This document shows, piece by piece, positions 37,309 to 62,593 of a DNA stretch of 64,000 bases. A model generated the notes under the pieces. The model was not told the DNA's origin. It was given only the letters and a program-made list of their open reading frames with translations, and ran no database searches. Position numbers and translations under genes: made by a program. The stretch's first letter is position 1. Every line of letters starts with the position of its first letter. Source of the stretch: a virus; IMG/VR virus record IMGVR_UViG_3300032579_000011, positions 14,899 to 78,898 of that record; one strand, given 5' to 3'.

Positions 37309-38055
37309 ATGGAACATAGTAAGCGTCTAACAAGAAAAGAAAAAAGAATCCTTCGTCAGCAAAACGGAAAAGAAAATACAAATCAAGAAAAATTAAATTT
37401 TAATCTTAAACACGTAGAACCATTAACCGAAAATCAAAAACGTTCTTTTGAAGCCTATCAACAAGGCAAAAATTTAATGCTTCACGGGATTGCTGGAACG
37501 GGTAAGAGCTTCATATCTTTATATCTAAGTTTGAACCAGATATTATCCGAAAACAGCGTTTACAAAAAGCTTGTTATTGTTAGAAGCGTTGTTCCAACAA
37601 GAGATATGGGATTCCTACCCGGAAGTCCTAAAGAAAAGGCCAAAGTTTATGAATCTCCTTATTATGCGATATGTTCTGAATTATTTGGAAGAGGAGATGC
37701 CTATGATTACCTCAAAAACAAGAACCTTGTTGAGTTTATATCAACTTCTTTCATACGCGGTGTTACTCTTAATGATTGTATTATTGTCGTTGATGAAATA
37801 GCTAATCTAACTCTCCACGAGCTTGATTCTGTAATTACTCGTGTTGGTAAAAATTGTAAAATTATATTCTCTGGAGACTTTAGACAATCTGATTTCACTA
37901 AAGATCAAGAAAAGAATGGTCTCAACGATTTCATGCGTATTATTAAAAGAATGAAATCTTTTGAATTCATAGATTTTCAACGCGAGGATATTGTTAGATC
38001 AAAAATGGTAAAAGATTATATTATATCAAAAGAAGAATTAAGAATTGTCACGTAA
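37309..38055 (+). CDS. phoH: PhoH-like ATPase
   Basis: GIAGTGKS, FIRGVT, VVDE, TRVG, SGDFRQSD, DIVRS. Confidence 0.92.
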   Translation: MEHSKRLTRKEKRILRQQNGKENTNQEKLNFNLKHVEPLTENQKRSFEAYQQGKNLMLHGIAGTGKSFISLYLSLNQILSENSVYKKLVIVRSVVPTRDMGFLPGSPKEKAKVYESPYYAICSELFGRGDAYDYLKNKNLVEFISTSFIRGVTLNDCIIVVDEIANLTLHELDSVITRVGKNCKIIFSGDFRQSDFTKDQEKNGLNDFMRIIKRMKSFEFIDFQREDIVRSKMVKDYIISKEELRIVT

Positions 38056-38707
38056 AATATTCAAACATAATTTTGTACCATTCGTCGAATTAAAAACCGA
38101 AAATATTAACGGGCGGCGCCACTACGTGCTGCCCGATGGCGTCACTAAACTTAAATCAGTAACAACTATACTAGGCGAAAAATTAGACAAAACTGCATTG
38201 ATTGAGTGGAAGAAAAGAGTCGGTGAAGCTGAAGCTCAAAGAATTTCAACTCAAGCCGCTCGAAGAGGCACAGCCATACATAAAATGGCTGAGAAATATG
38301 TTCTAAACGAAAACAACATATTTGAAAATCAAATGCCTGTTAATATAGAATCATTTGATCCTATTAAACAAATACTAGATAAACATGTTGATAATTTATT
38401 CGGCGTTGAGTTACCTCTTTATTCTAAATCTCTTAAGTGTGCCGGTCGAACAGACTTGGTTGGTGAATATGATGGCGTTTTGTCTATCATAGATTTCAAA
38501 ACTTCAAGGAAACCTAAGAAATTAGAATGGATCGAAAACTATTTACTTCAATCCACAGTTTATTCCATGATGTTTGAATGGACGTATAAAATAGCAGTTC
38601 CACAAATCGTTATTATTATCACAGTTGATAATGAAAAAACGCCCCAAGTATTTAAACTGGAGCGTTCTCAATATGTTAAAAGAGTGTTGGAAGTGTTTAC
38701 TTCATAA
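38045..38707 (+). CDS. PD-(D/E)XK exonuclease (Cas4-like phage exonuclease)
   Basis: SVTTIL, RGTAIH, AGRTD, IDFKTS, Y.LQ...Y. Confidence 0.85.
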   Translation: MSRKIFKHNFVPFVELKTENINGRRHYVLPDGVTKLKSVTTILGEKLDKTALIEWKKRVGEAEAQRISTQAARRGTAIHKMAEKYVLNENNIFENQMPVNIESFDPIKQILDKHVDNLFGVELPLYSKSLKCAGRTDLVGEYDGVLSIIDFKTSRKPKKLEWIENYLLQSTVYSMMFEWTYKIAVPQIVIIITVDNEKTPQVFKLERSQYVKRVLEVFTS

Positions 38708-40294: not shown

Positions 40295-40322
40295 AAAAAA
40301 GGGCGGGGATGAACCCACCCTT
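40295..40322 (-). terminator. Rho-independent terminator after DUF2828-type gene
   Basis: AAGGGTGGG-TTCATC-CCCGCCCTT-TTTT on minus strand. Confidence 0.8.
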
Positions 40323-40332
40323 AATTAGAAAT

Positions 40333-41766
40333 TTAGAAGTCGTAGCGATCAGACATTAATGTCTTAAGCATGATCGCCTCCGGAGTAAAGTCCTCCAAAT
40401 CAGCAGCCAACACCGACTTAACGATAGTTGGAGAGAAACCAGAAACAAGAGCAACGCCTCGTTCATCGAACTTAACAGGCACATTTTCATGTGCATTCAA
40501 GTTCCAGAAAACGATGTTAGGCATATTGTAAGCATGATAGATATACTTACGAGCAATCATTTCCATAGCAGAGTCATCGTGAGTAGTGCACTGATCAAAC
40601 TGCATGTCCGAAAGAATCAGCAGCATTGCAGGCATTTCTGACTGAGGAACATTACCTTCAATTGCAGTGAGAAGGATTTTATCCAGCGCGAGATGCAGGT
40701 TAGTGTTCATGTCCCACTTCGAAGTTACCATCTGCTTAACCTTATCGAGGATGTTACCACGAAGATGAAGCAGCTCAGGCTTGCCAGAGAAAGTCAAGAA
40801 CGTATCCTTAAACTTACCAGTGTTCTTTTCAGCAAGGTAAAGACCAAGAGAAACAGAAACGTCAAGGCAAGTTACCTTCGACTTGGAGTTATAGCCACCA
40901 GCAGGTGAAGTCATTGAACCAGAAACGTCAACGAGCGGAAGGATGTTTGCATCACCAACAAAGTTAGGAAGATCATCCCACTGAGCACGAATGTGATCGA
41001 GGTTCGACTGATTATATGACGCATTGTAACCGTAAGGAGAAACACCCTTCAGCACATCATACGGATAAACCGCACCAGCATTGACCTTGACAGTCTTTGC
41101 TACTTCAGGATCCTTCGAAACAAGAGCAGTAGTCCACTCCTTATACTTCTCAGTGTGACGTGAGAAAGCCTTCTTATATCTAGAAGAAGCAAGCGAAGGA
41201 ACATGGTTGAAATTAATTTCATCCCAATTCTTAGCGCACATGTCCTGCTCAACAACCTTGGTCAAGCTAACCAGTGTCTTACGATACTGCTTAGGTGACA
41301 TTCCAAGGAACGAACGAAGTTCAGCGGCTTCCTTACCCTTACGTGGCATCCACTTAGCAGCAAGACCATTCTTGGCTTCAAGAGCATCACGAACCATCGC
41401 AAATGCGATCTGACGCAAATCACCCTTGGTAACAAAGATATCGTCCCAACGTCCAAGCTCGGGAACACGCTTCAAAAGACGCTCCGCATATGCAGGATCA
41501 TGATCACAAGCATATTCTAGAATATCCCGGAAAATCTTACGCTCACCAGCGCCTCCGCGAATATCACGCGCCCAAAGAACAACACGGCCAGCCAATTCCT
41601 TATCTTGAACATAAGCTGCCGTAAAGTCAGGAATTACGTTCTTACCGCGAGATGCACCAATCTTATAGAAAAGATCAGTAACTGAATTGGCAGTAGACTT
41701 ACGAGCCTTCATACCATTAGTAGTACGAGCAGTCTGGTTCTTAACGGCATTAACAAATGTTGACAT
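40333..41766 (-). CDS. DUF2828-type TROVE-like/vWA protein (Ro60-related architecture)
   Basis: RDIRGGAGER, GRWDD, AAKWMPR, VPSLA; vWA MIDAS DVSGSM, TN, SDMQFD, VFWNL, SGFSP. Confidence 0.82.
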   Translation of the reverse strand: MSTFVNAVKNQTARTTNGMKARKSTANSVTDLFYKIGASRGKNVIPDFTAAYVQDKELAGRVVLWARDIRGGAGERKIFRDILEYACDHDPAYAERLLKRVPELGRWDDIFVTKGDLRQIAFAMVRDALEAKNGLAAKWMPRKGKEAAELRSFLGMSPKQYRKTLVSLTKVVEQDMCAKNWDEINFNHVPSLASSRYKKAFSRHTEKYKEWTTALVSKDPEVAKTVKVNAGAVYPYDVLKGVSPYGYNASYNQSNLDHIRAQWDDLPNFVGDANILPLVDVSGSMTSPAGGYNSKSKVTCLDVSVSLGLYLAEKNTGKFKDTFLTFSGKPELLHLRGNILDKVKQMVTSKWDMNTNLHLALDKILLTAIEGNVPQSEMPAMLLILSDMQFDQCTTHDDSAMEMIARKYIYHAYNMPNIVFWNLNAHENVPVKFDERGVALVSGFSPTIVKSVLAADLEDFTPEAIMLKTLMSDRYDF

Positions 41767-41787
41767 TTCACTTCTCCTTTGTTATCA

Positions 41788-41845
41788 ACAGATTGAACTT
41801 TTTTCTATTTTGCATATAGATTTTATTATTGCTGAACTCAATCTT
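41788..41845 (-). ncRNA. CAGCA-motif RNA unit 3 with Cys(GCA) anticodon-loop mimic
   Basis: AGATTGA/TCAATCT stem, TTCAGCAA, TCTAT-ATGCAAA-ATAGA. Confidence 0.65.
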
Positions 41846-41851
41846 AATTAA

Positions 41852-41917
41852 ACAGTATCACTTTTTGCTTTTTTTGATTACAAGTCAAATGCATTTTGGA
41901 TTGCTGAAATGATACTT
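41852..41917 (-). ncRNA. CAGCA-motif RNA unit 2 with Thr(TGT) anticodon-loop mimic
   Basis: AGTATCA/TGATACT stem, TTCAGCAA, TTTGA-CTTGTAA-TCAAA. Confidence 0.7.
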
Positions 41918-41924
41918 AAACTTA

Positions 41925-42145
41925 TCAGGTTAGTCGCGGTATTGTGGTCCACCATCCTCCGAAGAGGTTCAGGTTATTACGAGTAACCCCGAAGGATTCT
42001 CGACCACCCAGTGTTCATCAAAGTTCCCCCATCTTTCGATGGCTAAATCTCAGAAGGAAAGTCAAGCTTTCCAGAAGATGCCTCTAATCACTGCCTTCGC
42101 TGTTATCGCGATTTCAAACATAGGTTGTGTGCTGTATCTAACCTT
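41925..42145 (-). ncRNA. CAGCA-motif RNA unit 1 (about 220 nt, multi-hairpin)
   Basis: AGGTTAG/CTAACCT stem, TACAGCAC, GAAA and two TTCG tetraloop hairpins. Confidence 0.7.
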
Positions 42146-42159
42146 AATTCTTATCATTT

Positions 42160-42188
42160 ATAATACCGCGACTTAAGTTAAAAGTCAA
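42160..42188 (-). promoter_or_regulatory. sigma70-like promoter for ncRNA array and DUF2828-type gene
   Basis: TTGACT-N17-TATTAT. Confidence 0.7.
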
Positions 42189-42198
42189 GTAGTATTTT

Positions 42199-42272
42199 TG
42201 GTGCTTCTGCGTGGAATCAAACCACGGTAGATCGATTATCAGTCGATTATTCTATCATTGAATTACAGAAGC
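42199..42272 (-). tRNA. tRNA-Ile(GAT)
   Basis: ATCGA-CTGATAA-TCGAT; CCA; atypical D and T loops. Confidence 0.8.
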
Positions 42273-43490: not shown

Positions 43491-43571
43491 TGGTGCGCCT
43501 GGCAAGACTTGAACTTGCACCCGAAGACCAGTTTCTAAGACTGGCGTGTCTACCTATTCCACCACAAGCGC
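43491..43571 (-). tRNA. tRNA-Leu(TAG)
   Basis: CCAGT-CTTAGAA-ACTGG; CCA. Confidence 0.88.
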
Positions 43572-44066
43572 AGATTTTCTTTTTCTCCATGTCATTGTAA
43601 ATGAATGGCAATTTGGGCAAAGACCTTCTAAATTATTTCTATCGTTATTATTCGTATTGCCATCTTTATGTTCTAATTCAAGTTTTATGGGTTGACCTAA
43701 CCACTCAAATATTCCACAGTTATTACATTTAAAGTTTTGTTCTTCAAAAACTCTTCTTCTTTTTTGACCAGAACTAAGATCTTCAAACATTTTTGACAAA
43801 TACAAATTTTCTCTTTTCTTTTTTACTTTTTCTGATATACGGTTTCTAGTTTCTTCATTTATTGCGGAAAGGCGTTTTTCAATATGTTCTTGACTTTGTT
43901 TCTTTCCTTTATTGGATGGAGATCTTCCAATTAATTTTTCACTAACTTTTAAATTAATTTCTTTTCTTTTTGAGAAAGTAGAAAAAGCCGAAGCACATTT
44001 TTTACAACAAAATCTTCCAGAACCATATTCACCTGAATGAGTTTCTTTACAATATTCACATAACAT
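43554..44066 (-). CDS. HNH endonuclease
   Basis: CNNC...LELEHKDGNTNNN.RNNLEGLCPNCH; late promoter at 44100-44107. Confidence 0.88.
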   Translation of the reverse strand: MLCEYCKETHSGEYGSGRFCCKKCASAFSTFSKRKEINLKVSEKLIGRSPSNKGKKQSQEHIEKRLSAINEETRNRISEKVKKKRENLYLSKMFEDLSSGQKRRRVFEEQNFKCNNCGIFEWLGQPIKLELEHKDGNTNNNDRNNLEGLCPNCHSFTMTWRKRKSALVVE

Positions 44067-60901: not shown

Positions 60902-62593
60902 AAAATTCTTGTGTTTTTCAAACTTGAGAACTCTATCAAATTTATCATATAATTGGTCGCCTTTATGACTTATTATAAACGTGTTTGTGTCAGAAGTCAA
61001 GCTTTTTATTATCTTAAGAAATTCTTCTGTGCCGTTTCCGTCCAACGAGCTATCGAAAACTTCGTCCATGATCAAAAGGTTAGTATTAATACTATTACGC
61101 AACTTAGCCACAGCGCGCCAAGTAAATAATATCGCCAAATTGATTCGCATCTTTTCGCCTTCAGAAAACGATTCATAAGAAAATTCGTCGCGGAACCTGG
61201 ATTTGATGGTTTCATTAAATTCCTCATTAAGTTCAAATTGACACATAAATTCCATCGCCGAAAGATATTTATTAATCAGTTTGTTGATAACTGGTATGTA
61301 CTGTTTGATGATACGAGCTTTAATTCCGCCATCTTTCAATAAGATAGAAGCAGCGTTTAATATGTTTCGATCCTCTTTAACGATGACGATTTTTAATTCT
61401 AACTCTTTCAATTCGTTTTCATAATCCGTAATATTATTGTCTGTGCCTTCAATCTGTTTGTTTTTAATTAAATTGATATCCTTTTTCAATTCGTTTATAT
61501 AATTATTCATAGTTTTGATATCAGTTTCAAGTTTATATATTTCCATCTCTTTATTTCTAATATCATTTAATATTAACATAATTTCATTGAGACGATTATT
61601 AGAAGCTTCATATTCTACGGCTAGTTTATTCAAACCGTCTTGCGATTCTTCAATAATCTCCTTTTTTTCATTTATAGTTTTTTCTCGAAAATCTTCTTGT
61701 ATTGATTGTTTACAAGTTGGACAATCTTTATGTTTATCAAAGAAATCAACATCGCGGTTCAACAAAGCAACTTTAGCTTCTATTTGATGTTTGAGTTGAG
61801 AAAGCTTTGTAATTTTCTTATTTACTTTATCTTGATCTATGATTTTTGAATTTAATTCTTTAACATTTTCAATAAACGTTTCTAACTTACTCAAATTATT
61901 TTGAATTTTGATTTCAGTTTCTTTGATTAAGATTTGCTTTTCGGAAATAATATTTTCGTTATTGTTTTGTATACTCAAAAGATGTTTCTTTGTTAATTCT
62001 ATTTTAGAATCAATAATTTTCTTTTCGGACATTTTATCACGCAATAGTTCATTGTTATCTGATAACTTATCTTTCAACAAAGAATTCATGGTAGTGAAAA
62101 TTTGAAGCTCTAACAAATCTTCGATAATTTCTCTACGATTAGAAGCGGATAATTGCATAAATGGTTGAAACGTTGCCGAACCAAGAACAACCACTTGACA
62201 AAACGATTTGTGATTTACTTTGAGTATTTGCTTTTCAAGTATTTCTTGATAATCTTTCATTTCCGCAGATTGATTCATCAGTGTCTCGTTTTGAAACACT
62301 TTAAACACCGAAGGCTTCATACCTCTAACAATTTTATACTCTTTATTTTGTATAGAAAATTCCACTTCAACTAACAATCCTTTTTGATTGATAGAATTTA
62401 ATAGTTGTGGTTTGTTGATTTTACGAAACGGTTTACCAAACAAAACAAAAGAAAGAGCATCTAGTATAGTAGATTTACCAGCCCCATTTTCACCAACTAT
62501 TAATGTAGTGTTATTTTCATTAAGAGAAATTTCCGTAAATATATTTCCGGTCGAAAGAAAATTCATCCATCTTAATTTTTTAAATGTAATCAT
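60884..62593 (-). CDS. gp46: Recombination endonuclease ATPase subunit (SbcC/Rad50-like)
   Basis: NFLSTGN, GENGAGKST, CPTC hook, FSEGEK, MDEVFDSSLD, ISH. Confidence 0.96.
   Translation of the reverse strand: MITFKKLRWMNFLSTGNIFTEISLNENNTTLIVGENGAGKSTILDALSFVLFGKPFRKINKPQLLNSINQKGLLVEVEFSIQNKEYKIVRGMKPSVFKVFQNETLMNQSAEMKDYQEILEKQILKVNHKSFCQVVVLGSATFQPFMQLSASNRREIIEDLLELQIFTTMNSLLKDKLSDNNELLRDKMSEKKIIDSKIELTKKHLLSIQNNNENIISEKQILIKETEIKIQNNLSKLETFIENVKELNSKIIDQDKVNKKITKLSQLKHQIEAKVALLNRDVDFFDKHKDCPTCKQSIQEDFREKTINEKKEIIEESQDGLNKLAVEYEASNNRLNEIMLILNDIRNKEMEIYKLETDIKTMNNYINELKKDINLIKNKQIEGTDNNITDYENELKELELKIVIVKEDRNILNAASILLKDGGIKARIIKQYIPVINKLINKYLSAMEFMCQFELNEEFNETIKSRFRDEFSYESFSEGEKMRINLAILFTWRAVAKLRNSINTNLLIMDEVFDSSLDGNGTEEFLKIIKSLTSDTNTFIISHKGDQLYDKFDRVLKFEKHKNFSRLAS

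What the first reader, a model, noticed from the sequence alone, without database searches (positions are those of the whole stretch)
40333..42188. Candidate new RNP system: Ro60/TROVE-like vWA protein co-transcribed with an array of anticodon-mimic RNAs
Seen (minus strand): promoter 42188-42160, three tandem units, RBS, a 477-aa DUF2828-type gene, terminator. All units follow AAG-stem-nnCAGCA...stem'-G with different but fully complementary 7-bp stems (AGGTTAG/CTAACCT, AGTATCA/TGATACT, AGATTGA/TCAATCT). Unit 2 displays TTTGA-CTTGTAA-TCAAA, whose loop is identical to that of this phage's tRNA-Thr(TGT). Unit 3 displays TCTAT-ATGCAAA-ATAGA, a Cys(GCA)-like loop. Both are 5-bp stems with 7-nt loops, U33 and A37, without D or T arms. 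Established: Ro60 (TROVE+vWA) proteins bind Y RNAs through a conserved terminal stem, bacterial Y RNAs are often encoded next to Ro and mimic tRNA, and anticodon nucleases are anti-phage effectors. Inference: the protein binds the stem+CAGCA handle and presents exchangeable RNA cargo as decoys or sensors for tRNA-targeting defences or modification enzymes. I know of no description of RNA partners for this family, but cannot search to confirm.
Basis: partly seen in the sequence, partly recalled or inferred. Interest (0 to 1): 0.92.

Follow-up and report, generated by a model that had tools for sequence, protein, structure and literature searches.

The report
Phage Ro60-like protein with handle RNAs
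A lake phage encodes a ring-shaped Ro60-like RNA-binding protein preceded by three small RNA genes that share one conserved "handle"; two of them display tRNA anticodon-like hairpins, the same pairing recurs in very different phages, and I found it in no paper.

Summary
Observation confirmed. On the minus strand lie a promoter-like site, three tandem units (220, 65 and 57 nt), an RBS, a 477-aa DUF2828/DUF7788 gene and a terminator. Each unit is AAG, a 7-bp stem, 3 nt, CAGCA, a body, the complementary stem strand, then G.

- **Protein:** it folds as Ro60 (Z 23.6 over 412 residues), with an intact MIDAS motif.
- **Handle in close relatives:** it lies upstream of the gene in 146 of 147 related loci. 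Its stem covaries.
- **Handle in distant phages:** it recurs in mycobacteriophage LeBron and in Listeria, Felix-O1-like, Campylobacter, Staphylococcus, Ralstonia and cyanophage genomes, beside the gene or inside tRNA arrays.
- **Controls:** it is absent from 8 tRNA-rich phages that lack the gene.
- **Bodies:** they are often tRNA parts. Anticodon-like loops occur in about a quarter of short units and T-arms in mid-sized ones. The "anticodon mimic" reading therefore holds only partly, and the decoy function is untested.
- **Known families:** the handle differs from the CGAA motif of canonical Y RNAs. Its best Rfam match, below threshold, is Dictyostelium Class I RNA.

Best reading: a Y-RNA-like RNP. 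This scan has already noted the same system in at least 18 other genomes. I found no paper describing it.

The parts
42160..42188 (-). sigma-70-like promoter (TTGACT, 17 nt, TATTAT), about 8 nt upstream of U1
   Evidence: 10 of 12 consensus positions. Consensus match only; the number of such sites in the region is not above shuffles.
41926..42145 (-). Unit 1, 220 nt: AAG, stem AGGTTAG/CTAACCT, ATA, CAGCA(C), a large structured body with UUCG and GAAA tetraloop hairpins, then G
   Evidence: Sequence. Folding gives -66.4 kcal/mol, z -2.72. Two relatives (L113, L110) keep the handle and core helices, with 6 compensatory pairs among 3 sequences. The window copy carries an extra insertion of about 60 nt.
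41853..41917 (-). Unit 2, 65 nt: AAG, stem AGTATCA/TGATACT (extendable to 10 bp), CAGCAA, inner hairpin TTTGA-CUUGUAA-UCAAA (Thr UGU-like loop), then G
   Evidence: CM R1 scores 42 bits, E 3.9e-6. Rfam RF01414 aligns end to end at 23.0 bits. The tRNA model aligns its anticodon arm at 19.4 bits. The loop is identical to that of tRNA-Thr(TGT).
41789..41845 (-). Unit 3, 57 nt: AAG, stem AGATTGA/TCAATCT (extendable to 10 bp through G-U, U-G and U-A pairs), CAGCAA, inner hairpin UCUAU-AUGCAAA-AUAGA (Cys GCA-like loop), then G. It ends 9 nt before the RBS.
   Evidence: CM R1 scores 52.4 bits, E 3.2e-8. RF01414 scores 20.9 bits. The loop matches 6 of 7 positions of the tRNA-Cys loop. A 169-nt metatranscriptome contig identical to 41645-41813 spans the junction between U3 and the ORF.
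41774..41779 (-). Shine-Dalgarno sequence AAGGAG, 7 nt before the ATG
   Evidence: Read directly.
40333..41766 (-). 477-aa Ro60-like protein: an N-terminal HEAT-repeat ring (DUF2828) and a C-terminal vWA domain (DUF7788) with a MIDAS motif
   Evidence: Pfam PF25043 at 1.4e-44 and PF11443 at 4.4e-17. phrog_850 'RNA-binding protein' at 2e-135. AF2 pLDDT 92.3, pTM 0.91. Foldseek and VIA-align hit Ro60. D280, S282, S284, T355 and D387 are invariant in 91 homologues.
40299..40322 (-). intrinsic-terminator-like hairpin (9 bp, 6 of them G-C) followed by TTTTTT
   Evidence: the only such site between the promoter and the end of the gene.

Best explanation
The locus encodes a phage ribonucleoprotein built on the Ro60/Y-RNA plan.

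**Protein.** The 477-aa DUF2828/DUF7788 protein is a Ro60-shaped ring: a HEAT-repeat toroid closed by a vWA/MIDAS domain.

**RNAs.** The three upstream units are its likely partner RNAs. Each has a handle formed by its own 5' and 3' ends. The handle is a 7-10-bp helix whose sequence is free to vary, followed on the 5' strand by a nearly invariant single-stranded (U)UA-CAGCAA. The 3' side of the interior is A-rich, and the unit ends in CUG(U).

**Inferred steps.**
- The protein recognises the handle, just as Ro60 recognises the terminal helix plus CGAA motif of Y RNAs.
- The variable body is exposed to other factors.
- The units are transcribed with the gene from the promoter at 42188-42160. 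They are cut out at the AU-rich spacers of 7-8 nt, like the tRNAs of the adjoining array.
- Because the system travels with phage tRNA arrays and RNA-repair genes, the RNP most likely engages host or phage factors that recognise tRNA. Candidates are anticodon nucleases, tRNA-modifying or processing enzymes, and PNPase-type RNases. It could act as decoy, tether or gate.

**Bodies.** Across the family the bodies are often tRNA parts. Here these are two anticodon-arm look-alikes (Thr-UGU-like and Cys-GCA-like) and one large structured RNA. Elsewhere they include T-arms, T+D arms like those of YrlA, and permuted tRNAs.

**Status of the steps.**
- Shown: the fold, the RNA family, its covariation and its genetic linkage to the gene.
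- Inferred: binding of the handle by the protein, processing into discrete RNAs, and the target of the bodies.
For: **Fold**
- AF2 pLDDT 92.3.
- All top Foldseek hits are Ro60, including the phage phiLo Ro60 9KOP/9L5Y.
- Z 23.6, rmsd 3.9 over 412 residues against Xenopus Ro60. The next unrelated chains score 9.9 or less.
- A profile search of the PDB has Ro60 as its top hit, E 0.03.
- The MIDAS residues and many Arg/Lys of the HEAT half (R67, R70, R76, R80, R106, K138, R142, R162, K163) are invariant or nearly so.

**RNA family**
- The stem covaries.
- Units are 8- to 18-fold enriched upstream on the sense strand.
- 146 of 147 related loci have at least one unit; the mean is 2.9. The consensus is UUUU|AGG..(U)UA-CAGCAA...CCU|GUU.

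**Breadth**
- The same handle lies on the gene's strand in LeBron, Listeria LP-125, Felix-O1-like Si3, Cronobacter S13, Ralstonia RSP15, Synechococcus BUCT-ZZ01, Campylobacter CP81, a Staphylococcus phage and an Enterococcus phage.
- A CM trained only on the window's clade finds 14 of them, all on the + strand.

**Linkage to the gene**
- Whole-record scans hit 18 of 19 records that carry the gene. Hits lie beside the gene or inside tRNA arrays.
- The scans hit 0 of 8 tRNA-rich phages that lack the gene: T4, T5, Bxz1, rV5, 44RR2.8t, S-PM2, phiCbK and phi92. The positive control for the protein search worked.
- Bxz1 has a canonical TROVE gene with a YrlA-like hit beside it, but no CAGCAA handle.

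**tRNA-part bodies**
- T-arm hairpins occur in 24 of 159 units against 0.09 in shuffles. Anticodon-like loops occur in 30 against 5.6.
- LeBron's middle unit matches Rfam YrlA at 39.8 bits.

**Precedent**
- Phage phiLo Ro60 binds Yrl RNAs encoded upstream of its gene and modulates host PNPase (PMC12135203).
- YrlA RNAs lie within 4 kb of Ro60 on the same strand (PMC4201824).
Against: - No binding, expression or processing data exist for this system.
- The metatranscriptome evidence is weak. It consists of short contigs of low depth, in libraries that can contain DNA.
- In some phages (Yersinia fHe-Yen9-04, KVP40, S13) the units lie 7-200 kb from the gene, inside tRNA arrays. The linkage is therefore genomic, not always operonic.
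- The protein is not a sequence member of Pfam TROVE, and the handle lacks the CGAA motif that canonical Ro60 proteins need. The recognition mode is inferred by analogy only.
- The look-alike Class I RNAs of Dictyostelium are reported to bind an RRM protein (Rnp1A), not a Ro-like protein (PMC7919456).
- Anticodon-like loops are found in only a minority of units.
Confidence: 0.62

Rival explanations
1. The units are cis-acting elements of the gene's own 5' leader. The protein, or a host factor, binds them to autoregulate translation or mRNA stability. They are not free partner RNAs.
For: U3 ends 9 nt before the RBS. Most close relatives keep a unit at about -75 to -18 from the start codon. In KVP40 a 6-bp stem+CAGCAA element pairs with the start codon itself. 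No terminator separates the units from the gene. An identical metatranscriptome contig bridges U3 and the ORF.
Against: In LeBron, the Staphylococcus phage, the Felix-O1-like phage, S13 and RSP15 the units lie downstream of the gene. In Yersinia fHe-Yen9-04 they lie 200 kb away, inside a tRNA array. Bodies that are elaborate and diverse, such as T/D arms and structured RNAs of 200 nt or more, are not needed for a leader operator. A leader role for the proximal unit can coexist with free RNAs.
Confidence: 0.13
2. The units are stable RNAs that work with another partner and are only genomically linked to the Ro60-like gene. The partner could be an RRM-type or tRNA-binding protein, as reported for Dictyostelium Class I RNA and Rnp1A. 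The Ro-like protein would bind other RNAs, such as misfolded or damaged tRNAs.
For: The best Rfam match of the short units is Class I RNA, and the known direct binder of that RNA is Rnp1A (PMC7919456). Units can lie far from the gene, inside tRNA arrays. Ro60 proteins also bind misfolded RNAs through the central hole (PDB 2I91 and 9NEP titles).
Against: Presence and absence coincide strictly: 18 of 19 records with the gene have the handle, against 0 of 8 without it. Units lie on the gene's strand in every phage checked. The canonical Ro60/Y-RNA systems show the same genomic logic (PMC4201824, PMC12135203).
Confidence: 0.15
3. The units are decayed tRNA genes or tRNA-array spacer and processing elements, for example RNase substrates that help release tRNAs. 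They have no function of their own.
For: They sit at the end of, or inside, tRNA arrays. Their bodies contain tRNA parts. Annotators have called some of them tRNA or tRNA-OTHER, as in S13. The tRNA model aligns weakly to U2.
Against: A non-tRNA motif, CAGCAA, is invariant across phages of Actinobacteria, Firmicutes, Proteobacteria, Cyanobacteria and Campylobacterota, while the stems covary. The units are absent from 8 phages with large tRNA arrays but no DUF2828 gene. In Listeria LP-125 and the Staphylococcus phage they flank the gene without any tRNA array around them.
Confidence: 0.07

Closest known systems
Ro60 (Rsr/TROVE2) with Y RNAs, especially bacterial and phage YrlA/YrlB (Rfam RF02553; Chen et al. 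2014, PMC4201824) and Thermus phage phiLo Ro60 with Yrl1/Yrl2 (Hu et al. 2025, PMC12135203; PDB 9KOP, 9L5Y)
   Same: - The protein has a ring-shaped HEAT-repeat + vWA/MIDAS fold.
- The RNAs are encoded beside the gene on the same strand.
- The RNA architecture matches: a terminal helix made by the 5' and 3' ends, a conserved single-stranded motif right after the 5' strand, and a variable effector module.
- tRNA-like T/D-arm modules occur in some units (LeBron, S13, RSP15).
   Different: - The protein matches Pfam DUF2828/DUF7788, not TROVE. It shares only 11-17% identity with solved Ro60s.
- The conserved RNA motif is (U)UACAGCAA, not GNCGAAN0-1G/CGAA.
- Units come in arrays of 1-6, and many bodies are bare anticodon-like hairpins or large non-tRNA folds.
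- A canonical-Ro phage (Bxz1) lacks the CAGCAA handle.
Class I RNAs of dictyostelid social amoebae (Rfam RF01414; Kjellin et al. 2021, PMC7919456)
   Same: - Size is about 42-65 nt.
- They start with AAG and end with CUGU.
- A 6-bp terminal stem covaries in sequence.
- An 11-nt motif next to the 5' strand has invariant T3, C6, C9, A10 and A11, which fits xxUUACAGCAA.
- The remainder is variable and A-rich.
- RF01414 is the top Rfam hit, aligned over the full model, for U2, U3 and two Listeria-phage units.
   Different: - Scores of 19-23 bits are below the gathering score of 41.5.
- Class I RNAs were reported as unique to Dictyostelia, are driven by a DUSE promoter, and bind the RRM protein Rnp1A.
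- A link to a DUF2828 protein in amoebae was not tested here.
- Phage units also come in sizes of 80-300 nt with tRNA-part bodies.
Phage tRNA-array stable RNAs and tRNA-like decoys against anticodon nucleases (own knowledge: T4 species 1 and 2 RNAs; phage tRNAs that escape PrrC-, PARIS- or retron-type tRNA cleavage)
   Same: They are encoded with phage tRNAs. They display anticodon-arm-like or T-arm-like elements. They sit in a plausible counter-defence context.
   Different: They have no cloverleaf and are not called by ARAGORN. They are defined by a non-tRNA handle and tied to a Ro60-like protein. No functional data exist.

Membership tests
Ro60 / TROVE proteins | Ring of HEAT-like repeats closed by a vWA domain (the Ro60 fold) | tested here: met
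   Z 23.6, rmsd 3.9, 412 residues aligned to 2I91_B. Ten Ro60 entries rank above any other chain. Foldseek E 4e-9.
Ro60 / TROVE proteins | MIDAS motif (DxSxS...T...D) in the vWA domain | tested here: met
   D280, S282, S284, T355 and D387 are invariant in 91 homologues. DVSGSM aligns with Ro60's DVSASM.
Ro60 / TROVE proteins | Sequence match to Pfam TROVE (PF05731) | tested here: not met
   Pfam scan at E up to 0.1 gives only PF25043 and PF11443. A PF05731 search of the whole record gives no match, while Bxz1 matches. phmmer against the PDB finds nothing. The profile search reaches only E 0.03.
Ro60 / TROVE proteins | Binds Y RNA through a conserved terminal helix | not testable with these tools
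   Needs EMSA, RIP or a structure.
Y RNA / YrlA (RF02553) | Terminal stem formed by the 5' and 3' ends, encoded near the Ro gene on the same strand | tested here: met
Y RNA / YrlA (RF02553) | GNCGAAN0-1G / CGAA motif required for Ro60 binding (PMC4201824, PMC12135203) | tested here: not met
   The conserved motif is CAGCA(A) in all 239 distinct units. No CGAA lies at that position in U1-U3.
Y RNA / YrlA (RF02553) | tRNA-like T-arm/acceptor/D-arm module; Rfam score at or above the gathering score of 69 bits | tested here: not met
   No RF02553 match in the window's record at E up to 0.01 and no T-arm in U1-U3. Relatives do have such modules (LeBron 39.8 bits; 24 of 159 units with a T-arm), but below the gathering score.
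Dictyostelium Class I RNA (RF01414) | Covarying 6-bp terminal stem, AAG start, CUGU end, length 42-65 nt | tested here: met
   U2 is 65 nt and U3 57 nt. Both read AAG...CUGUU. Covariation is shown. The RNA ends are inferred from sequence, not mapped.
Dictyostelium Class I RNA (RF01414) | 11-nt motif with T3, C6, C9, A10 and A11 conserved | tested here: inconclusive
   U2 (CATTTCAGCAA) has all five. U3 (GAGTTCAGCAA) has four of five. U1 (AGATACAGCAC) has three of five (motif positions from PMC7919456).
Dictyostelium Class I RNA (RF01414) | Rfam gathering score of 41.5 bits; dictyostelid origin with a DUSE promoter | tested here: not met
   Scores are 23.0 and 20.9 bits and 23.1 and 19.1 bits in the Listeria phage. 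This is a phage locus with a sigma-70-like promoter.

The most novel reading that the evidence does not exclude
DUF2828/DUF7788 proteins and stem-UACAGCAA 'handle RNAs' form one ancient, undescribed branch of the Ro60/Y-RNA world. In phages the RNP works as a programmable display of tRNA parts: anticodon arms with exchangeable triplets, T-arms, and permuted tRNAs. This display would titrate or sense tRNA-targeting host defences or tRNA enzymes. The orphan Class I RNAs of Dictyostelium would be the eukaryotic partners of the same protein family, which would give both the RNAs and the protein family their first mechanism.
Probability: 0.25. Interest if true: 0.93.

Novelty: new variant of a known kind. 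Interest (0 to 1): 0.82.

Why it matters
It would assign partner RNAs and a working model to a very large protein family of unknown function. At least 4,360 cluster representatives match at E up to 1e-10, and 710 phage records carry the gene, among them Felix-O1-like, KVP40-like, Listeria A511-like and cluster L mycobacteriophages.

It would add a widespread ncRNA class to phage biology. Annotators currently call these units small ORFs, "tRNA-OTHER" or spacers.

It would show a second RNA-recognition code for Ro60-shaped proteins, CAGCAA instead of CGAA.

Because the bodies are tRNA parts and the system travels with tRNA arrays and RNA-repair genes, it offers a direct test of whether phages use RNPs to counter tRNA-targeting immunity. 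Several host phages are tractable laboratory phages.

The resemblance to Dictyostelium Class I RNAs, which have lacked a mechanism since 2004, makes a long-open question testable.

Tried and rejected
- **Megablast.** A search of the locus against named phages found nothing. The relatives are too distant at the DNA level.
- **phmmer against the PDB.** No hit. Only the profile search and the fold searches connect the protein to Ro60.
- **Rfam on 8 kb around the locus.** At E up to 1 no family hit the units. RF01414 appears only when the stretch searched is short, so on its own it is a weak match.
- **The genome search with RF01414 on the whole record.** It missed U2 and U3 and listed hits of 10-14 bits elsewhere. 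Its first-look filter is unsuited here, so the result is uninformative.
- **Class B alignment.** Aligning the large units of 190-280 nt showed heterogeneous interiors, and no common fold could be derived. Only two close relatives of U1 were found.
- **Metatranscriptomes.** Five lake RNA runs hold only 5-12% of the words. The contigs laid are short, of low depth and partly from relatives. No start, end or level of any RNA can be read from them, and parts without cover mean nothing.
- **RtcB (PF01139).** None was found in this 79-kb fragment, which is 47% complete, so nothing can be concluded.
- **Neighbouring ORFs.** Those downstream of the gene have no Pfam match.
- **ESM Atlas.** It returned only the family's own clusters.
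- **Papers not held.** The supplementary tables of Chen 2014 and the papers Avesson 2011 and Burroughs & Aravind 2016 are not in the library. As a result I could check neither which 22 phages Chen et al. scored nor which four proteins were pulled down with Class I RNA.
- **U2 as a T-armless tRNA.** The tRNA model aligns an acceptor stem, a 3-bp GCA/UGC 'D arm' and an anticodon arm. I rejected this as a general reading, because the GCA/UGC pairing is not kept in other units.
Full report
**What is there.** The description below refers to the minus strand of the window.
- The last tRNA of a 24-gene tRNA array is tRNA-Ile(GAT), at 42199-42272.
- After it comes a sigma-70-like promoter at 42188-42160.
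- Three tandem units follow, separated by AU-rich spacers of 7-8 nt: U1 42145-41926 (220 nt), U2 41917-41853 (65 nt) and U3 41845-41789 (57 nt).
- Then come the RBS AAGGAG (41779-41774), a 477-aa ORF (41766-40333) and the only terminator-like hairpin of the stretch, at 40322-40299.
- Every unit reads AAG, a 7-bp stem, 3 nt, CAGCA, a body, the complementary stem strand, then G.
- The three stems differ but are perfectly complementary: AGGTTAG/CTAACCT, AGTATCA/TGATACT and AGATTGA/TCAATCT.
- U2 and U3 each carry one inner hairpin with a 5-bp stem and a 7-nt loop. The U2 loop CUUGUAA is identical to that of the phage's tRNA-Thr(TGT). The U3 loop AUGCAAA differs at one position from the tRNA-Cys loop CUGCAAA.

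**The protein.**
- It matches Pfam DUF7788 (1.4e-44) and DUF2828 (4.4e-17), and phrog_850 'RNA-binding protein'. It does not match Pfam TROVE.
- With an alignment of 91 diverse homologues, AlphaFold2 gives pLDDT 92.3 and pTM 0.91.
- Foldseek's top 12 listed hits are all Ro60 proteins: Xenopus, human, Deinococcus Rsr and Thermus phage phiLo Ro60. The best E-value is 4e-9.
- VIA-align gives Z 23.6 (rmsd 3.9, 412 residues) to Xenopus Ro60. The best non-Ro60 chains match the vWA domain only, at Z 9.9 or less.
- A sequence profile also has Ro60 as its top PDB hit, but only at E 0.03.
- The MIDAS residues and a set of Arg/Lys in the HEAT half are invariant or nearly so.
- So the protein is a Ro60-shaped ring from a sequence family distinct from TROVE.
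- The family is very large. 5,974 cluster representatives match at E up to 0.001. It occurs in 710 named phage records of many lineages, and in cluster L mycobacteriophages it is already annotated 'Ro-like RNA binding protein'.

**The RNA family is real and tied to the gene.**
- I fetched 160 related loci with 61-74% protein identity.
- In 46 non-redundant loci, stem+CAGCA units occur at 3.75 per kb in the 600 nt upstream on the sense strand. That compares with 0.21 per kb antisense and 0.47 per kb elsewhere.
- 146 of 147 loci with enough upstream sequence have at least one unit; the mean is 2.9.
- 239 distinct units give the consensus UUUU|AGG-NNNN-(N)UA-CAGCAA...A-N-CCU|GUU. Lengths run from 33 to 296 nt.
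- In an alignment of 43 short units the 7 outer pairs covary strongly. There are 90 double-change cells against 30.6 in shuffles, and 0 of 500 shuffles reach that value. All slid registers collapse.
- U1 has two relatives that keep the handle and its core helices, with 6 compensatory pairs among 3 sequences. The window copy carries an extra insertion of about 60 nt.

**Breadth.** The same handle is present on the gene's strand in phages that share only 31-48% protein identity with the window's protein.

| Phage | Units found |
|---|---|
| Mycobacteriophage LeBron | three, downstream of the gene |
| Listeria LP-125 | three, upstream |
| Felix-O1-like Si3 | three or four, among the tRNAs downstream |
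| Cronobacter S13 | two, downstream of the gene |
| Ralstonia RSP15 | two, downstream of the gene |
| Synechococcus BUCT-ZZ01 | three, upstream |
| Campylobacter CP81 | two, upstream |
| Staphylococcus phage S-CoN_Ph2 | three, downstream |
| Enterococcus phage VRE9_1 | one, upstream |

- A covariance model trained only on the window's clade recovers 14 of them, all on the + strand.
- Scanning whole records, 18 of 19 gene-bearing records have hits at E up to 0.1 (41 hits in about 3.2 Mb). The hits lie beside the gene or inside the phage's tRNA array. Examples are Yersinia fHe-Yen9-04 at 308-311 kb, KVP40 at 176.6 kb and S13 at 120.5 kb.
- Eight tRNA-rich phages without the gene have no hit: T4, T5, Bxz1, rV5, 44RR2.8t, S-PM2, phiCbK and phi92. 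The positive control for the protein search worked.
- Bxz1 is informative. It has a canonical TROVE gene with a YrlA-like hit next to it, but no CAGCAA handle. The handle therefore tracks the DUF2828 branch, not Ro proteins in general and not tRNA arrays in general.

**What the bodies are.** Among 159 non-redundant units of the window's clade:
- 24 contain a canonical T-arm hairpin, G-[UG]UCRANY-C, against 0.09 in shuffles. Most of these are units of 76-140 nt.
- 30 contain a hairpin with an N-U-NNN-A-A loop, against 5.6 in shuffles. These include 15 of the 56 short units.
- No shuffle out of 200 reached either count.
- In a stricter best-hairpin analysis of 36 short interiors, 15 have 7-nt loops (3.0 expected) and 8 have U33 plus R37 (0.41 expected).
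- The triplets vary. TGT and GCA are commonest, and TTT, TAT, CAT, TGA, GAT, CCA and GGT also occur. Distant phages show GGU (LeBron), UUU (BUCT-ZZ01) and GCU (CP81).
- LeBron's middle unit matches Rfam YrlA at 39.8 bits, through its T-arm, closed acceptor and D-arm. S13 and RSP15 have the same kind of unit, and one relative carries a permuted tRNA.
- About a third of short units instead have a 9-nt loop, A-C-N-N-A-U-A-W-C, and U1 has no recognisable tRNA part.
- The anticodon mimicry seen in U2 and U3 is therefore a recurring, non-random theme within a wider theme of 'tRNA parts on a handle'. It is not a defining feature.

**Comparison with what is known.**
- Canonical bacterial and phage Y RNAs (YrlA, Yrl1 and Yrl2) share this architecture: a terminal helix, a conserved single-stranded motif and an effector module. 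Their motif is GNCGAAN0-1G/CGAA, and mutating it weakens binding to phiLo Ro60 (PMC4201824, PMC12135203). Here the motif is (U)UACAGCAA.
- Chen et al. searched only genomes annotated with a TROVE domain (PMC4201824), which would have missed this family.
- The only Rfam family that aligns to the short units is RF01414, Dictyostelium Class I RNA. It aligns end to end at 23.0 and 20.9 bits here, and at 23.1 and 19.1 bits in the Listeria phage. All four scores are below the gathering score of 41.5.
- The published definition of Class I RNA fits the phage units point by point: AAG start, covarying 6-bp stem, an 11-nt motif with T3, C6, C9, A10 and A11, a variable remainder, a CUGU end and about 60 nt (PMC7919456).
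- That lead came from earlier notes of this scan. I re-tested it on this window.
- I could not test whether dictyostelids have a DUF2828 protein that binds Class I RNA.
- Searches for DUF2828, PF11443, DUF7788, Ro-like phage proteins, and anticodon decoys found no paper on these RNAs. Iyer et al. [quoted passage not shown]

**Mechanism.**
- Shown: a Ro60 fold; a conserved, covarying RNA family; and its genetic coupling to the gene and to tRNA arrays.
- Inferred, at about 0.6: the protein binds the handle, and the RNAs are excised from the transcript to form an RNP whose exposed body contacts other factors.
- Inferred more weakly, at about 0.25: the bodies act as decoys or sensors for factors that recognise tRNA anticodon or T arms. 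Context favours a role in tRNA or RNA repair. RtcB lies 1.3 kb downstream in Listeria LP-125. An RNA ligase lies immediately upstream in Yersinia fHe-Yen9-04. LeBron carries an RNA ligase and a polynucleotide kinase.
- The gene-proximal unit may in addition serve as an autoregulatory site. U3 ends 9 nt before the RBS, and KVP40 has a stripped-down copy that pairs with the start codon.

**Expression.** The evidence is weak. In lake metatranscriptomes a 169-nt contig identical to 41645-41813 bridges U3 and the ORF. A 211-nt contig from a relative covers almost exactly the body of U1 and begins with CAGCAA. These are contigs of depth 2-12, from libraries that may contain DNA.

**Verdict.**
- This is a new variant of the Ro60/Y-RNA kind of system. 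It is widespread in phages and, as far as I could search, undescribed in the literature.
- This scan has already met it in at least 18 other genomes.

Noticed in passing
L090:87-523 (Listeria phage LP-125, JX126918.2): Rfam ROOL RNA (RF03087) matches at 84.2 bits, E 5.6e-16, below the gathering score of 99.1. The match lies just upstream of a tRNA-Met and the three handle units.
   Followed up: no
L091:3096-3338 (Cronobacter phage S13, NC_028773.1 132703-132945): Two features annotated as a 121-nt 'tRNA-Ser' and a 113-nt 'tRNA-OTHER' overlap a 119-nt CAGCA-handle unit that carries a T-arm and a D-arm (L091:3147-3265). They are probably handle RNAs miscalled as tRNAs.
   Followed up: partly
L095:1061-1198; L096:2719-2808; L097:1059-1175: Small 'hypothetical protein' ORFs annotated in Campylobacter CP81, Staphylococcus S-CoN_Ph2 and Enterococcus VRE9_1 overlap handle units. 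They are probably spurious gene calls.
   Followed up: no
L087:1466-1505 (Vibrio phage KVP40): A minimal element (6-bp stem GACAUU, then UUA-CAGCAA) has a 3' strand that is the gene's own start codon region (AUGUC). It is a possible autoregulatory copy of the handle.
   Followed up: no
L108:131-331: A 201-nt handle unit whose body looks like a circularly permuted tRNA. A T-arm, a 3' acceptor strand and CCA come first; the 5' acceptor strand and a D-arm-like part come later.
   Followed up: no
window 43554-44066 (-): A 170-aa ORF with a weak HNH_3 match (E 0.0078, below the Pfam cut-off) sits inside the tRNA array. It may be a homing endonuclease.
   Followed up: no
window 37309-38707 (+): A PhoH-like ATPase (5e-43) is followed by an overlapping PD-(D/E)XK nuclease-family ORF (6.9e-07). 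They are convergent with the Ro-like operon.
   Followed up: no
window 41987 (within U1): A metatranscriptome contig from a related phage has a 13-nt insertion (+ strand CCCGAAGGGCAAT) in one hairpin of U1. This fits the modular growth of the body.
   Followed up: no
W03 (LeBron HM152763.1) 60911-61678: Three further weak YrlA-model hits (24-37 bits) cluster about 21 kb from the Ro-like gene. I did not check them for the CAGCAA handle or for overlap with tRNA genes.
   Followed up: no
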